Notes: generated from the sequence alone by a model not told the origin. Counted from the first letter of the stretch, positions 4,879-62,819 are shown. The stretch: DNA of 64,000 nt from Lytechinus pictus (GCF_037042905.1 NC_087251.1:24430001-24494000); one strand, 5' to 3'. Made by a program: numbers and translations.

Positions 4879-6176
4879 CTAGAAAGAAGAAAAAATGTTG
4901 GAGATGTACTTATTAAAATCAAGAAGCTATACTCCTCCTTGGATAATACTAACAACATCACATTGGGTAAGCAAATTAAATATCCGTTTCTCCAAGACAC
5001 ACCCTGATTTTTTTTTTTTTTTTTTTACATCTTACTCTATTCAGAGAAATGATTAAACTCTGTAGAGAATCACATTATGTTAAATAAAATCTGTTTTGAA
5101 GCTTTAACATTACAAAAATGTTGAGATGAATGAAAAATGAGAGAAAAACTAGTTATTTCCTTTTTGCCTGCAAGGCAAACCATATTTAACTAGTACTTAA
5201 GTGATTATATAATTGATTCTTATCCCTCTATGCCAAGTACCAACTTCCAATAAGAACTTTGAATAGTAATATTGTAGTAATCACTTTCTCTCTTTCATAC
5301 ATTTCTGATTAACTTGTATCTATGCAGGACCTTATATAGTCTCTTTAGGAATTATGAATAAAAGGCTGCACGTCATTCATTAATGAAAACATATACAACT
5401 AAGATGCGTTTTCAGTCAATTCTAGAATAAAATGAATTTGATCAATATATCAGCCACGACCATTCATCCAAACCATAGCAAAGCAAGTAACGAATTGGAA
5501 ACATATTACTCCTCTTAGCAACAGCAATTAATATAAACAAAATTATATTACACATTTATGCTGTTTGCAGCGCTATATTTATGAACTGTACATTTATATC
5601 AGTGCCACAGTTCAGTTGTCCTTGCTATTATTATGCACATCCATTGTCCTTGTAGCTCATGAAAACACAATGACGTACCAGCAACACATGAAACTGCACT
5701 GATTTTATATTTCTGTCCAAATATCAAGTTTCCTTTTAATTTGTCACATAATGTACCAATCAAGTAATCATAAACACATGATTTCAGACAAATTGATGTC
5801 AGGGGATATTAGAAATCTGTTTGAATAGTGCTTGTTAAAAGGCAATTTTGCTTTATCACACATATCTTTGTTACAAAAATACTTTCCTCTATCAAGCACT
5901 ACTGATTTTTTTTCTTCAAAAAGTTGTCATGCCATATCACTGCCCACACCAAATAATAAAAACATAGTCCCTCATTTTGTATTTAGCACTTAACCTTAAA
6001 TTATTTAAAGAAATATAACAATAATAAGCATCAGAGTGTACACAGTGCTATCTAAGTAAGATATGGAATTCTTTTTCATGAAGTGACACGTTTATAATTT
6101 CACTTCCTTACCACAGAGCTAATAAGGCCACATCCTTGTCAAAAGATATGTGTAAATAACATCTATATATTTGTGT

Positions 6177-6550
6177 ATAATGGGTCCACAGAGGTGATTG
6201 GTCCAAATGTTATAATTAGCCTATTTCTCTCTATGGCCCCCTTCAAAACACTGATTCCACATCAAATCCACTTTTTTTAAAAAAATTGATACATAATTGT
6301 TTCTGGTTGGATGAGTTTGTTACTCAAATTCTCATTCAAAAATCATTTTTCTCTCAATAGTGGACACTTTGGAACTGCTTTTCAATAATGGATCCACACA
6401 GGTGATTGGTCCAAATCTGCGAATATCGACTGCAACTTTTATACTGTTTCCACATCAAATGCACATTTCGTTTTTTAATTGATACATAATTGTATCTGAT
6501 TGGATGAGTTTGTTACTCAAATTTTCATTCAAAAATTATTTTTCTTTCAA
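6177..6550. repeat. Diverged ~209-bp tandem duplication
   Basis: TAATGG(G/A)TCCACA(G/C)AGGTGATTGGTCCAAAT...TTGGATGAGTTTGTTACTCAAATT occurs from ~6178 and again from ~6386. Confidence 0.85.
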
Positions 6551-6698
6551 AACCCCTAAATGCAGTCCCCAATGTGATACCCGTTACACCTTACTACTCA
6601 TTATCTGAATTATCAAGCTATAAATAGGTTTTTATCTAATATTGCTTGACAATGATTTATTGCCAGTGACTGGTTATATTAAACATACTAGCTCATCT

Positions 6699-6825
6699 AG
6701 GGAGCATTTCATGAAATAAATAGTGATATGAACTGTTATAAGCTACTGAAATCCTTGCATCTGATTGGCTGAGAGCAAATAAGTCAGTGAAAATCACTGA
6801 TAAAACTCTTCATGAAATGCTCCCC
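6699..6825. mobile_element. Short MITE
   Basis: Termini (G)GGAGCATTTCATGAA / TTCATGAAATGCTCCCC. Internal GATTGGCT box is shared with relatives at ~58.3 kb and ~60.9 kb. Confidence 0.7.
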
Positions 6826-8039
6826 TTAGTGTAGTGTACAGGAGAGAGAAATGGGATATACTCATATTGAAATACAGTATGAGACAACAAACTATTTTTT
6901 TCTTCTATTATTTTGGTGTGAAAAAATTGATGTCCTCTATAAAAAAACAAATTGACTTTTTTCGTAACAAAAGAGATAATGAAACACTTGCAAAATTTTG
7001 TTATAATAGAAGAACATATAACATACACATAAAAAAAAACGGTGTTTAATGTAATTTTTTTCTCGTTTTAATTGTAAAACGGCAATTGAGCAATGTAGTG
7101 TTGTTTGTCATGGAAGAGAAATGTTACACATTACATCATAACCCTACCACTGCAAACACTGGAAACTGTTCTACTGAATTCAGAAAGCAAGAAAATACAT
7201 CCATTAACAATAAATGTCTAATTCTAAAACAAATATGATTGTGCTGATGCTGACTCAGAGCTCTTGAGTGCCTCGTTACAACGATACGAAGTTGGCAGGC
7301 ATAGCTATCCTTCAATAAAACATATTAAGACACACATTAGCACTGATGAATGACATAGATTAAGATGATGGAGAATGAGCAACCTCAATTCACAGAAACT
7401 CTCAAGTGTTGTGAATGACACAAGAGAATCTTCTTCATCTACAAAACTCAAGGTGCAAAGGAAAGGAAACAAGGACGGAAAGAGAGAAAAAGAGAAAGTG
7501 AGACAGAAAGAGAGATAGAGAGGGTGAGAGATACAGAGATGGGAAGCAAATGCACATTATATGCTTTATAAAGACTAAATATTGCACTTATTTAGATTGA
7601 AAAAAAAAATCTAGAAATGATACAAAAGGGGAAAATAGGTAAAAAAGGAATGGAAACAAAAGGTGTGGTGATTGGGGGTTGATGAGCAAATATGGAGACA
7701 GCGTGTCAAAAGACAGCTGAAGAACTGAAAAAAGAAAAAAATGAATAAAAAGGTGAAAAAAGAAGGAAGAGAGTGAAAACAAGAGTCACAGAAGGTTTGA
7801 TCTTCAACTATTGAAATGGACTATCACATGTACGGTCAAATCAATAGTGACCAATTCTGGAGGGTAACGCGAAAAAAGGCACAATTTACGAGGATAAGCA
7901 ACAATTTCACTCTCCTGAAAGCACTATGCAAACCAATTCCTGAAAGTCCAATTTGATCTTATTGCTTTTCACTAACCGGCAGTGATAAAATGCTATCCTG
8001 TAGAGAGGGCACTGGCCACTACGAGCCATTTTCACCTTC

Positions 8040-60642: not shown

Positions 60643-61832
60643 AAAGTGTTTAGACTATGGTTAAAACTGAAGATTAAATTTAAAAGTAACACGATGAAGT
60701 GCAAGTATTCTTGTATAATTTGTTCAATAAGTACAAATCGTGCAAATTGGATATTGTGGCATGTCAGCTCATGAATATTGGTAAATTCAATGTAAACAAT
60801 GTGATAAACCGCACTCAAGGGCAGTCAATATAATACCAATATGCAGGTTACCATCTGGAAAATGAAACTGTAAAACAATATTGCTAAAAAAAATTAGCAT
60901 AACATAAAATTAGCATTACATAAAATACGTACAGGGCGATGTTTCATTGTCTGCTGACAACTGTCAGCATTGACTAAAGTCAAGGTTGTTGATTGGCTGA
61001 GAAGTACTGGCCTCTGACTGTTACTACGGCAACTGCCGGAGAATTACTATTTGTTAGTGTTGATAACTTTCATGAAACGCTCATATTTTACCATTAAAAT
61101 ATCAGTTTACCATGGTTACAAACACGTTCCGTCTAAACTCACTCTCTCAATCCATCTCCCTCGACGTGAATATTCATACTCCAGCACATAAAATACACAG
61201 GAACAGCAGAAAAATCACCTCTGTAGCTTACAAAACCACCATAAAAGAATAAAGAGAGTGATTTTTTCTTATGAAAAAAAAAAAAGTGATCTCCACAGAT
61301 TTCAATGCCATAACTACTGCCAGATAATTCATCTCGATTTATTCAAAGTCTTGAATAATTCACAAATTGGATGCATGAATATAGTCTGGCCCAGGGTGGA
61401 CTCGGCAGGAATAGACCCAGCCTTGCTTGCACATGCCGCACTGTGACTGCACTTGTTATTTAGCCATCAATAGCAATAGCTAGCAGCAGGGACCATGACA
61501 AATACTGCACTGATACATTTAGAACCAATGAATAATACACAAAAGTCATTAGAGCACTTATATATACATATTCTATGTGAGTTTCGTGCATTTCTCTAAA
61601 TGCCTTATGTTAAAAAAAAGTTCTGTAAGGAGATATCTTTCTTACTTCTGTTCATTCTAAAAGATATGTAATATTAAAGCCAAAAACAATTAATTGTGAC
61701 TATTTTGCAAATTTACAGGGACTACTTTTCACAATTAGAGAGCAGATCGCCCTCAGCCCTCCTGTACGTCTTTCACTTACTGGCCTTCAGAGGCCCCATG
61801 CAACAGCATTACAAAAAGTGGGTACTATTTAA

Positions 61833-62310
61833 AGGTCAAGTCCACCCCAGGAAAATGCTGACTTTAATAAATAGAGAAAAATCAAACTAGCATAGTGCTG
61901 AAAATTTCATCAAAATCGGATGTAAAATAAGAAAGTTATGACATATTAGAATTTTGCTTATTTTTCACAAAACAGTGATATTCACAACTAGTTGAGTCAG
62001 CCGATGATGTCCACCACTCACTATTTCTTTTGTTTTTTATTGTTTGAATTATACAATATTTCATTTTTTATAGATTTGACAATAAGGACCAACTTGACTG
62101 AACCATATAATATTAAACAATGCTAATTCCACATGTTCAGGGAGGAATTAATCGTTGTATCACTTGGCAATGAGGAGAAAATTAGAATATTTCATATTTC
62201 ATATAATAAAATACAAAGGAAATAGTGAGTGGATGGCGTCATAGTCTCCTCATTTGCATACCAGCCAGGATGTGCATATAACTGTTTTGTGAAATTAAGC
62301 GAAACTTTAA
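61833..62310. mobile_element. Kolobok-like MITE copy 3, right end missing
   Basis: TTAA|AGGTCAAGTCCACCCC start. Colinear with 46977-47550 until an internal TTAA at 62307-62310, where a different element begins. Confidence 0.85.
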
Positions 62311-62774
62311 CCCTAATTCTCCCGGGGGGGGGGGGGGGGGCCATAATGAATACAAAGAATATTTTAACCAAAAATTAGCATTCTAGGAGCTTTATTTAGT
62401 GAATTAGAGCAAAAAGTATGATTTATGCATAAATTAGCACAATTAATTCATATAAAATAAAATCTCATTATTTTGGAAAATTTTACCATACAGCCTTGTA
62501 GATTACATCGCACACAACCAGCATGCAAATTTTTGCGTCGCTCGAGCGATCAGCGGCCGAGATCTTAAGGGGGGGCCATAATGGCCCGGGAATGACAAGA
62601 ATCAAAATACCGGAATCGCGTACCCGGGCGTCGTAAATTTGGTCTCAAAAGATGCGCGAGACTTAAAAGTATAAACTCTGCGAGTGGCGCGGTCAAAAAA
62701 TTTTGCGCGGCGCAATGATCGCAGAAAATGTTGAGGGGGGGGGTTGATTCAACCCCCCCCCGGCCATTTTAGGG
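62311..62774. mobile_element. piggyBac-like MITE
   Basis: TTAA|CCCTAA...CCGGGGGG and CCCCCCGGCCATTTTAGGG|TTAA. CCC/GGG termini at TTAA are typical of piggyBac. Confidence 0.75.
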
Positions 62775-62819
62775 TTAAATCTAATGCACAACGATAAAAT
62801 ATTTTAGATTAATTCTTAC

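What the first reader, a model, noticed from the sequence alone, without database searches (positions are those of the whole stretch)
4879..62819. INO80 as a 'bystander' gene: giant 3' introns may form an enhancer array for a neighbouring Delta gene
Seen: three introns near the 3' end are 23,782, 24,825 and 7,058 bp, whereas the others are 371-1,463 bp. Between transposons there are a dozen or more apparently unique GC/CpG-richer islands (~8.1, 8.8, 12.5, 13.1, 15.1, 21.6, 24.1, 25.1, 30.0, 31.9, 33.1, 39.9, 41.7, 48.4, 55.7, 56.7 kb), several with clustered TF motifs. Established, recalled not checked: human INO80 points its 3' end toward DLL4 (CHAC1 between them), Drosophila Ino80 adjoins Delta, and the sea urchin delta module R11 lies downstream of delta. 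Inference: a Delta gene lies tail-to-tail beyond position 1, and these introns are an ancient genomic regulatory block for it.
Basis: partly seen in the sequence, partly recalled or inferred. Interest (0 to 1): 0.85.

Follow-up and report, generated by a model that had tools for sequence, protein, structure and literature searches.

The report
Giant INO80 introns beside sea-urchin Delta
The window is the tail end of a sea-urchin INO80 gene whose huge introns lie in an ancient Delta–ChaC–INO80 gene neighbourhood also seen in humans, but the sequence itself gives no positive sign that these introns are Delta enhancers.

Summary
A fourth giant intron (~31.8 kb) runs off the left edge, so INO80 ends 28.7 kb left of the window, not at 4879.

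The predicted Delta gene exists. The order on the contig is Delta (+), 58 kb gap, CHAC1-like (+), 60 kb gap, INO80 (−). This matches the gene order given for human DLL4–CHAC1–INO80. The linkage is already catalogued as bilaterian microsynteny block 3020 (Robert et al. 2022, supplement).

Of the 16 islands, 13 are single-copy, two hold short repeated pieces and one is a repeat. As a set they are GC-richer than random intron windows. They are not enriched in CpG o/e or in eight TF consensus motifs. The strongest CpG-rich patches are young high-copy repeats.

CpG o/e drops from ~0.8 to ~0.3–0.5 at ChaC. The Delta flanks lie on the high side. The INO80 introns lie on the low side, like the compact 5' part of INO80.

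Accessibility, contacts and cross-species conservation could not be tested. The synteny is right and ancient; the enhancer-array reading is plausible but unsupported (~0.3).

The parts
1..4677 (-). Right-hand 4.7 kb of a fourth giant INO80 intron (~31.8 kb). It runs to the last coding exon at C7:24401273-~24402843, left of the window.
   Evidence: The 532-aa ORF at C7:24401273-24402868 (-) matches the C-terminal tails of echinoid INO80 proteins P0011 and P0008. In-frame GT..AG joins from exon G exist.
4678..4878 (-). INO80 exon G
   Evidence: tblastn; acceptor AG and GTGAGT donor.
4879..11936 (-). INO80 intron F-G, 7,058 bp
   Evidence: CpG o/e 0.359.
11937..12066 (-). INO80 exon F
12067..36891 (-). 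INO80 intron E-F, 24,825 bp
   Evidence: CpG o/e 0.534; repeats at least 18.5%.
36892..39037 (-). INO80 exons E (36892-37008), D (37380-37471) and C (38935-39037), with small introns of 371 and 1,463 bp
39038..62819 (-). INO80 intron B-C, 23,782 bp
   Evidence: CpG o/e 0.585; repeats at least 22.8%.
62820..63051 (-). INO80 exon B (Helicase_C part of the SNF2 ATPase)
   Evidence: Pfam PF00271, E 3.3e-14; tblastn 95-97% identity to echinoderm INO80.
63769..63863 (-). INO80 exon A (approximate ends)
34900..36112 (.). High-copy ~1.2 kb repeat; the strongest CpG-rich patch of the window
   Evidence: 39 other genomic places listed at 87-95% identity, 2184 first-look candidates; CpG o/e 1.20.
54100..55195 (.). 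Very young high-copy repeat with a 200-bp tandem part at 54103-54496
   Evidence: 39 other genomic places at 97-99% identity over 54500-55195; TRF.
17235..17620 (.). Palindromic MITE-like repeat (copies hit on both strands)
   Evidence: 1897 first-look candidates.
25037..25271 (.).
   Evidence: 343 first-look candidates.
46504..46726 (.). Short high-copy repeat
   Evidence: 2875 first-look candidates.
56149..56390 (.). Short high-copy repeat
   Evidence: 2141 first-look candidates.
12901..13300 (.). Single-copy patch with locally raised CpG o/e (0.80); candidate regulatory element, function untested
21301..22000 (.). Single-copy patch, GC 0.43, CpG o/e 0.78; candidate regulatory element, function untested
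39801..40200 (.). Single-copy patch, GC 0.47, CpG o/e 0.73, about 0.8 kb upstream of exon C; candidate element or unannotated exon, untested

Best explanation
The window is the 3' third of a sea-urchin (Lytechinus-type) INO80 gene. Its four giant introns total 87.5 kb, about 74% of the ~119 kb span from the first mapped coding exon to the stop. They are most likely ordinary expanded introns: mostly single-copy non-coding DNA sprinkled with short non-autonomous repeats.

They lie inside a CpG-depleted domain. I infer that this domain is germline-methylated and constitutively transcribed. It starts at ChaC and covers all of INO80 examined.

INO80 does sit in the ancient Delta-ChaC-INO80 neighbourhood. 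However, the part that looks like Delta's own regulatory domain (CpG o/e ~0.8, no other gene found) ends at ChaC. Shown: gene order, intron sizes, copy status of the islands, composition. Inferred: methylation state and absence of enhancer function.
For: Intron sizes and exon map.

Coding content:
- Of 142 ORFs of at least 62 aa between window 8300 and 64000, 1 has a Pfam hit, and that is exon B.
- No Rfam family and no tRNA in the window.

Repeats:
- At least 10.7 of 55.7 kb (19%) of the three introns is repeated.
- Seven short or young repeat families were identified.
- The highest CpG patches are such repeats.

Composition:
- CpG o/e is 0.79-0.82 for upstream of Delta, the Delta gene and the Delta-ChaC spacer.
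- It is 0.36-0.585 for the four introns, 0.44 for the ChaC-INO80 spacer and 0.425 for the compact 5' part of INO80.
- The change falls at about C7:24.334-24.346 Mb.

No excess of 8 TF consensus motifs; the best results are 138 of 2000 raw and 171 of 2000 GC-matched.
Against: - The size asymmetry is striking. Residues 1-1314 are encoded in 27.4 kb and residues 1314-1894 in 91.5 kb, and the expanded part is the Delta-facing end.
- Most tested intron DNA is single-copy: 13 of 16 islands, with about 7 kb mapped as single-copy and further islands found single-copy later. Repeats alone have not been shown to explain the size.
- The three-gene linkage has survived since the bilaterian ancestor. The genomic-regulatory-block model explains such linkage by enhancers lodged in bystander genes (abstract of PMC3514665).
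- CpG depletion does not exclude small enhancers inside a methylated gene body.
- My repeat map is only a lower bound. The genome search scores only 40 candidates per query.
Confidence: 0.5

Rival explanations
1. Genomic regulatory block. Some single-copy islands in the INO80 3' introns, and perhaps in the ChaC-INO80 spacer, are long-range enhancers of Delta. INO80 and ChaC are bystanders, and this is what has kept Delta-ChaC-INO80 linked since the bilaterian ancestor.
For: - Delta (+), ChaC (+) and INO80 (-) lie in the predicted order and orientation.
- The same triplet is listed in order on human 15q15 (PMC5325341, passage). The mouse genes lie within about 100 kb of one insertion site (PMC3874025, passage).
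- Block 3020, 'Bilateria novel', is recorded in molluscs, arthropods, a brachiopod, a sea urchin and a coelacanth.
- Recalled human neighbours are not kept. VPS18 is on contig C2, and no PF01612 exonuclease gene lies near INO80. The conservation is therefore specific to the triplet.
- The giant introns are confined to the Delta-facing end.
- 13 of 16 islands are single-copy.
Against: - There is no positive functional or conservation evidence.
- The islands are not enriched in CpG o/e or in motifs.
- The CpG o/e boundary at ChaC separates Delta's domain from the introns.
- The ChaC promoter and 138-228 kb lie between the Delta start and the introns.
- Delta has 58 kb of gene-free DNA downstream. 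Upstream, the 35 kb examined held no host-gene hit, and the nearest located gene (NIF-type) is 94 kb away.
- INO80 is not listed as a bystander in the supplement of PMC7530604 as held.
Confidence: 0.3
2. The big introns serve INO80 or ChaC rather than Delta. They may hold their own regulatory elements, unannotated non-coding transcripts, or alternative 3' ends that produce a short INO80 isoform lacking the poorly conserved C-terminal tail.
For: - A Lytechinus INO80 model (P0006, 1312 aa) aligns through the exon B donor and ends at an in-frame stop at window 62784. This would be a short isoform ending just before the first giant intron.
- The tail exons are weakly conserved, at 36-82% identity.
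- The 60 kb ChaC-INO80 spacer is as CpG-depleted as the gene bodies, which hints at transcription beyond the annotated ends.
Against: - No RNA evidence could be obtained.
- No Rfam family in the window.
- P0006 may be a prediction artefact.
Confidence: 0.12
3. The intron sizes are an assembly artefact, such as a haplotig insertion or a collapsed or duplicated segment.
For: None found.
Against: - Local BLAST of the window against itself and 283 kb of other fetched DNA (flanks plus scattered loci) found no long internal duplicate; the longest repeated stretch is 1.2 kb.
- The exons are collinear and in frame.
- There are no N runs in the left 200 kb.
Confidence: 0.02

Closest known systems
Human and mouse DLL4-CHAC1-INO80 neighbourhood (15q15; mouse chromosome 2)
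   Same: The same three gene families occur in the same order. The orientation (Delta/DLL4 and CHAC1 on one strand, INO80 convergent) is as I recall the human map. The order and linkage are stated in PMC5325341 and PMC3874025.
   Different: The sea-urchin spacers are large (58 and 60 kb). The recalled human flanking genes VPS18 and EXD1 are not linked here. No published DLL4 enhancer inside INO80 turned up in my searches.
Microsynteny block 3020, 'Bilateria novel', in the Syntenic Density Database of Robert et al. 2022 (PMC8851819, supplementary file 4)
   Same: It lists INO80 and CHAC1 orthogroups in the block, with a DLL4 row in two species. The S. purpuratus rows (TIMM50 twice, one unknown, CHAC1, INO80) match the order seen here, where a NIF/TIMM50-like exon lies 94 kb left of Delta.
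   Different: It is a database row only. I did not search that paper's main text for this block. The S. purpuratus rows lack Delta, which is present here on one contig.
Genomic regulatory blocks with bystander genes (Irimia et al. 2012, PMC3514665; Touceda-Suarez et al. 2020, PMC7530604)
   Same: A developmental regulator is linked over deep time to unrelated housekeeping neighbours, and there are large non-coding stretches in and around the neighbours.
   Different: The defining conserved non-coding elements and enhancer activity are untested here. INO80/DLL4 is absent from the main texts and from the held supplement of the 2020 paper as a bystander pair. The 2012 supplement could not be read.
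Sea-urchin delta module R11 (Revilla-i-Domingo et al. 2004)
   Same: It is a known distal cis-regulatory module of the same gene in another sea urchin. [quoted passage not shown]
   Different: I could not verify its position because the paper is not held. From recall it lies within a few tens of kb downstream of delta. That would be the Delta-ChaC spacer, not the INO80 introns.

Membership tests
INO80-subfamily SNF2 ATPase gene | Helicase_C/SNF2 ATPase exons orthologous to INO80 | tested here: met
   Exon B carries PF00271. Exons are 94-97% identical to echinoid INO80 proteins, and named INO80 orthologues top the hit list. Exons covering residues 1-1880 map collinearly on contig C7.
Delta-type DSL Notch ligand | MNNL + DSL + EGF repeats + TM/ICD, closest to Delta rather than Jagged/Serrate | tested here: met
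   MNNL and DSL exons and EGF hits on four ORFs. The 372-aa ORF of the penultimate coding exon is 99% identical to a Lytechinus delta-like protein, 85% to P. lividus Delta and 73% to Eucidaris delta. Jagged proteins match only at ~40-47% over about a third of the query. The whole 794-aa protein maps to C7:24265253-24277110.
CHAC1 (glutathione-specific gamma-glutamylcyclotransferase 1) | ChaC domain; orthology to CHAC1 rather than CHAC2 | tested here: met
   PF04752 on two + strand ORFs. 99% identity to a protein that NCBI names 'gamma-glutamylcyclotransferase 1-like'. The CHAC1 versus CHAC2 assignment rests on that name, not on a tree.
Genomic regulatory block (target gene plus bystander) | Deeply conserved microsynteny between a developmental regulator and unrelated neighbours | tested here: met
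   Own-genome map plus block 3020 in PMC8851819 and the mammalian neighbours.
Genomic regulatory block (target gene plus bystander) | Conserved non-coding elements inside the bystander's introns | not testable with these tools
   No other echinoderm genome is on hand; the held genome has no relatives in the collection (header).
Genomic regulatory block (target gene plus bystander) | The elements are accessible, contact the target promoter and drive target-like expression | not testable with these tools
   No run could be laid, and no Hi-C or reporter data are on hand.
CpG islands / unmethylated patches | Local CpG o/e well above the surrounding DNA, in single-copy sequence | tested here: not met
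   The set mean o/e is 0.545 against 0.503 (1412 of 5000 random sets reach it). Only 13.1, 21.6 and 39.9 coincide with called patches (o/e 0.73-0.80). The strongest patches are repeats.
Transposon-filled introns | Most of the intron length made of repeats or TE-derived coding remnants | tested here: inconclusive
   The lower bound is 19% repeats and there are no TE protein domains. The genome search scores only 40 candidates per query, so older or lower-copy repeats may be missed.

The most novel reading that the evidence does not exclude
The four giant 3' introns of INO80, together with the ChaC-INO80 spacer, are the distal half of a Delta regulatory landscape more than 250 kb long. This landscape has existed since the bilaterian ancestor and is the reason DLL4/Delta, CHAC1 and INO80 are still neighbours in sea urchins, molluscs, arthropods and humans. 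Some of the 13 single-copy islands are Delta enhancers embedded in a methylated housekeeping gene body.
Probability: 0.27. Interest if true: 0.6.

Novelty: new member of a known kind. Interest (0 to 1): 0.4.

Why it matters
Delta is the key signalling ligand of the sea-urchin endomesoderm network, and only part of its cis-regulatory system has been mapped. If its enhancers reach into INO80, existing BAC and reporter analyses may have missed modules. A bilaterian-wide three-gene linkage would also gain a mechanistic explanation that could be carried over to vertebrate DLL4.

If the introns are ordinary instead, the locus still gives a clean example of a sharp compositional (probably methylation) boundary, at ChaC, between a developmental gene's domain and neighbouring housekeeping genes. 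The synteny itself is already catalogued, so the gain is moderate.

Tried and rejected
- **Fetching more flank:** 20 kb was granted. I therefore mapped the rest of INO80 by a protein search of the genome instead of from DNA.
- **ATAC-seq test of accessibility:** The look-up of sequencing runs with the library word ATAC listed none. That used the only search, so read laying could not be used. This is no evidence either way.
- **Full repeat map:** larger queries were saturated by one short high-copy repeat each, because only 40 candidates are scored. Only a lower bound could be given.
- **Extended synteny:** VPS18 (PF05131) is on contig C2, and no PF01612 exonuclease gene lies near INO80. The block is limited to the triplet, plus a NIF/TIMM50-like gene 94 kb left of Delta.
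- **Nested genes or RNAs:** none found by Pfam, Rfam or ARAGORN.
- **TF motif clustering:** 8 consensus motifs recalled from memory showed no enrichment.
- **Earlier notes of this scan:** nothing held.
- **Literature:** four searches, plus term look-ups in two GRB papers, in one held supplement and in PMC13317027, found no paper that discusses INO80 introns as Delta/DLL4 enhancers. Not every listed hit was opened. The R11 paper is not held, and the supplement of Irimia 2012 is not readable; either could bear on the claim.
- **Second MNNL+DSL locus at C7:39.29 Mb:** the N-terminal exons alone did not tell Delta from Jagged.
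Full report
**Where the window lies.** The window is G000:C7:24430001-24494000 of an 812-Mb eukaryotic assembly. Its proteins are 99% identical to Lytechinus sea-urchin proteins. A stop-to-stop ORF at 62781-63086 (-) carries the Helicase_C end of an SNF2 ATPase. Its best named relatives are INO80 orthologues of many animals, including eight echinoderms.

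**The observation: exons and introns.** tblastn with six INO80 proteins placed seven minus-strand exons in the window. Four are named echinoderm proteins (P0006, P0008, P0037, P0043) and two are unnamed Logan proteins (P0011, P0019). Reading the splice sites gives these introns:
- 39038-62819 = 23,782 bp
- 12067-36891 = 24,825 bp
- 4879-11936 = 7,058 bp
- two small introns of 1,463 and 371 bp

Joined exons B to F read open in one frame.

**A fourth giant intron.** A 532-aa ORF at C7:24401273-24402868 (-) had no Pfam hit. It matches the C-terminal tails of two echinoid INO80 proteins: P0011 residues 1523-1880, and P0008 residues 1834-1929. In-frame GT..AG joins from exon G, which has a GTGAGT donor, to this ORF exist. 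A fourth giant intron of about 31.8 kb therefore runs off the left edge. Window 1-4677 is intron, and the INO80 stop lies 28.7 kb left of the window.

**Size asymmetry within the gene.** Whole-gene mapping puts residues 1-1314 in 27.4 kb (C7:24492814-24520170). Residues 1314-1894 occupy 91.5 kb. The four giant introns total 87.5 kb, about 74% of the ~119 kb from the first mapped coding exon to the stop. The asymmetry is real and strong.

**The neighbours.** Genome-wide scans with Pfam MNNL and DSL found a Notch-ligand gene on the + strand at C7:24.265-24.277 Mb. Its 372-aa ORF (the penultimate coding exon) is 99% identical to a Lytechinus delta-like protein, 85% to P. lividus Delta and 73% to Eucidaris delta. 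Jagged proteins match only the EGF part, at about 40-47%. The full 794-aa Delta maps to C7:24265253-24277110.

I scanned all 742 ORFs of at least 55 aa from C7:24260001 to window 8300 against Pfam. The only host-gene hits were Delta (MNNL on one ORF, EGF families on four) and two + strand ORFs with the ChaC domain, at C7:24335018-24335551 and 24340553-24341098. One weak hit below the curated cut-off was disregarded (SIR3_C, E 0.004). The ChaC gene is 99% identical to a protein named gamma-glutamylcyclotransferase 1-like.

The order is therefore Delta (+), 57.9 kb, CHAC1-like (+), 60.2 kb, INO80 (-), with INO80 tail-to-tail to the other two. One caveat applies. ORF scanning can miss genes with short exons or without Pfam domains.

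**How old is the linkage?** The literature gives these points:
- A human study lists DLL4, CHAC1 and INO80, in that order, among 15q15 genes (PMC5325341, passage).
- In the mouse, Dll4, Chac1 and Ino80 lie within about 100 kb of one transgene insertion site (PMC3874025, passages).
- Supplementary file 4 of Robert et al. 2022 (PMC8851819) holds block 3020, 'Bilateria novel'. It has INO80 rows in Lottia, Mizuhopecten, Tribolium, Ixodes, Strigamia, Euprymna, Latimeria and S. purpuratus. It has CHAC1 rows in seven species, including Crassostrea. DLL4 rows appear in Lingula and Latimeria (the file was cut when stored).
- The S. purpuratus rows are TIMM50 (twice), one unknown gene, CHAC1 and INO80.

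In this genome a NIF/TIMM50-type exon lies at C7:24170947-24171141, 94 kb left of Delta. Two genes that I recall as the human flanks are not linked here. VPS18 is on contig C2, and no PF01612 exonuclease gene lies near INO80. The linkage is thus ancient, specific to the triplet, and already catalogued. I found no paper that discusses it individually or places Delta/DLL4 enhancers in INO80 (searches; term look-ups).

**What the introns are made of.**
- Coding content: of 142 ORFs of at least 62 aa between window 8300 and 64000, only exon B has a Pfam hit. There is no reverse transcriptase, transposase or nested gene.
- RNA genes: no Rfam family and no tRNA.
- Tandem repeats are minor.
- Local repeats: BLAST against 283 kb of other DNA from this genome already marks 9.1 kb of the window as repeated.
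- Repeats found by genome searches: 34900-36112 (39 other places listed at 87-95% identity), 54500-55195 (39 other places at 97-99%, so very young), 25037-25271, 56149-56390, 17235-17620 (palindromic, MITE-like), 46504-46726 and 55865-55939.

The lower bound for repeats in the three introns is 10.7 of 55.7 kb, or 19%. The true share is unknown, because each genome search scores only 40 candidates.

**The islands.**
Island 15.1 has five short weak hits. Island 55.7 contains a 60-75 bp high-copy piece. Island 25.1 is a repeat. 'Apparently unique' is therefore largely right.
- Composition: as a set they are GC-richer than random intron windows (0.417 against 0.359; 0 of 5000 random sets reach this). 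That is how they were chosen. Their CpG o/e is ordinary (0.545 against 0.503; 1412 of 5000 reach it).
- Overlap with called patches: my own scan called nine CpG-rich patches. The two strongest tested (35.1-36.1 and 54.7-55.4 kb) are high-copy repeats, and two others (30.5-30.9 and 47.5-48.2 kb) overlap repeated stretches found.
- Motifs: eight TF consensus motifs, recalled from memory, are not enriched. The best results are 138 of 2000 against random windows and 171 of 2000 against GC-matched windows.

**A compositional boundary.** CpG o/e by segment:

| Segment | CpG o/e |
|---|---|
| Upstream of Delta | 0.815 |
| Delta gene | 0.786 |
| Delta-ChaC spacer | 0.805 |
| ChaC gene | 0.383 |
| ChaC-INO80 spacer | 0.439 |
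| INO80 last exon | 0.275 |
| Four giant introns | 0.450, 0.359, 0.534, 0.585 |
| Compact INO80 part | 0.425 |

In 4-kb steps the change falls at about C7:24.334-24.346 Mb. Spikes to the right of it coincide at one place (24482-24486 k) with the young repeat; the spike at 24366-24370 k was not examined.

From established knowledge of mosaic methylation in invertebrates, CpG depletion marks germline-methylated, broadly transcribed gene bodies. Developmental genes and their flanks stay CpG-rich. That knowledge is recalled, not tested here. On this reading Delta's own domain extends from at least 35 kb upstream to ChaC. The INO80 introns belong to a housekeeping, methylated domain.

In the 30 kb scanned upstream of Delta, I tested 29 of the 143 ORFs. 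The only domain hit above the curated cut-off was a LINE with endonuclease and reverse-transcriptase domains; a weak MVP_shoulder hit fell below it.

**Weighing the readings.** Under the genomic-regulatory-block model, a linkage this old argues for some cis constraint. The confinement of the giant introns to the Delta-facing end fits that model.

Nothing in the sequence marks the introns as regulatory, however. The composition sets them apart from Delta's domain. ChaC and 138-228 kb lie between them and the Delta start. Delta also has ample gene-free flanks of its own. From recall, the one known distal module, R11, lies downstream of delta. I could not verify its position.

I therefore rate the readings as follows: ordinary expanded introns, 0.5; Delta enhancers in at least some islands, 0.3; INO80 or ChaC regulation, or alternative 3' ends, 0.12. 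The last reading is prompted by a Lytechinus INO80 model (P0006) that reads through the exon B donor to a stop at 62784, and by the CpG-depleted spacer.

**What could not be done.** Accessibility, contacts and cross-species conservation are the decisive tests. No ATAC run was listed and the single run search was used. No other echinoderm genome is on hand. The supplement of Irimia et al. 2012 and the R11 paper could not be read and may bear on the claim.

Noticed in passing
C7:24334000-24346000 (left of the window; loci L032-L033): CpG o/e changes sharply from ~0.8 to ~0.3-0.5 at the ChaC gene. This is probably a germline methylation boundary between the Delta domain and the ChaC/INO80 domain.
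   Followed up: partly
C7:24341099-24401272 (ChaC-INO80 spacer; loci L033-L039): This 60 kb has no Pfam-bearing ORF, yet it is as CpG-depleted (o/e 0.44) as the flanking gene bodies. That hints at unannotated transcription, a long 3' UTR or read-through.
   Followed up: no
window 62784-62819: A Lytechinus INO80 protein model (P0006, 1312 aa) aligns through the exon B donor site to an in-frame stop at 62784. It may be a short isoform lacking the whole C-terminal tail, or a prediction artefact.
   Followed up: no
C7:24401273-24402868 (L039:1273-2868, minus strand): The last INO80 exon is a 532-aa open frame with no Pfam domain. It is only 36-50% identical to other echinoid INO80 tails, so this is a long, fast-evolving C-terminal extension.
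   Followed up: partly
window 54100-55195: A repeat whose 39 other listed copies are 97-99% identical, so the element was probably active recently. It has a 200-bp internal tandem duplication.
   Followed up: partly
window 17235-17620: A ~390 bp repeat whose copies match on both strands, as expected of a palindromic MITE. There were 1897 first-look candidates.
   Followed up: no
C7:39287357-39289469 (-), L010/L012; C3:41601761 and C3:41659946-41710452, L011/L018/L021: Two further loci carry MNNL and DSL exons. The C3 locus has many EGF repeats and is probably Serrate/Jagged. The identity of the C7:39.29 Mb gene was not resolved.
   Followed up: partly
C3:33281619-33553878 (L014-L017, L019): Five DSL-domain hits lie within 270 kb on contig C3. 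This suggests a tandem family of DSL-containing genes.
   Followed up: no
C7:24246379-24249527 (L023:6379-9527, + strand): A non-LTR retrotransposon with endonuclease and reverse-transcriptase domains lies about 16 kb upstream of the Delta start.
   Followed up: no
C7:24366001-24370000 (L035): An isolated 4-kb bin with CpG o/e 1.19 sits inside the CpG-depleted spacer. It is probably another young repeat, but this was not checked.
   Followed up: no
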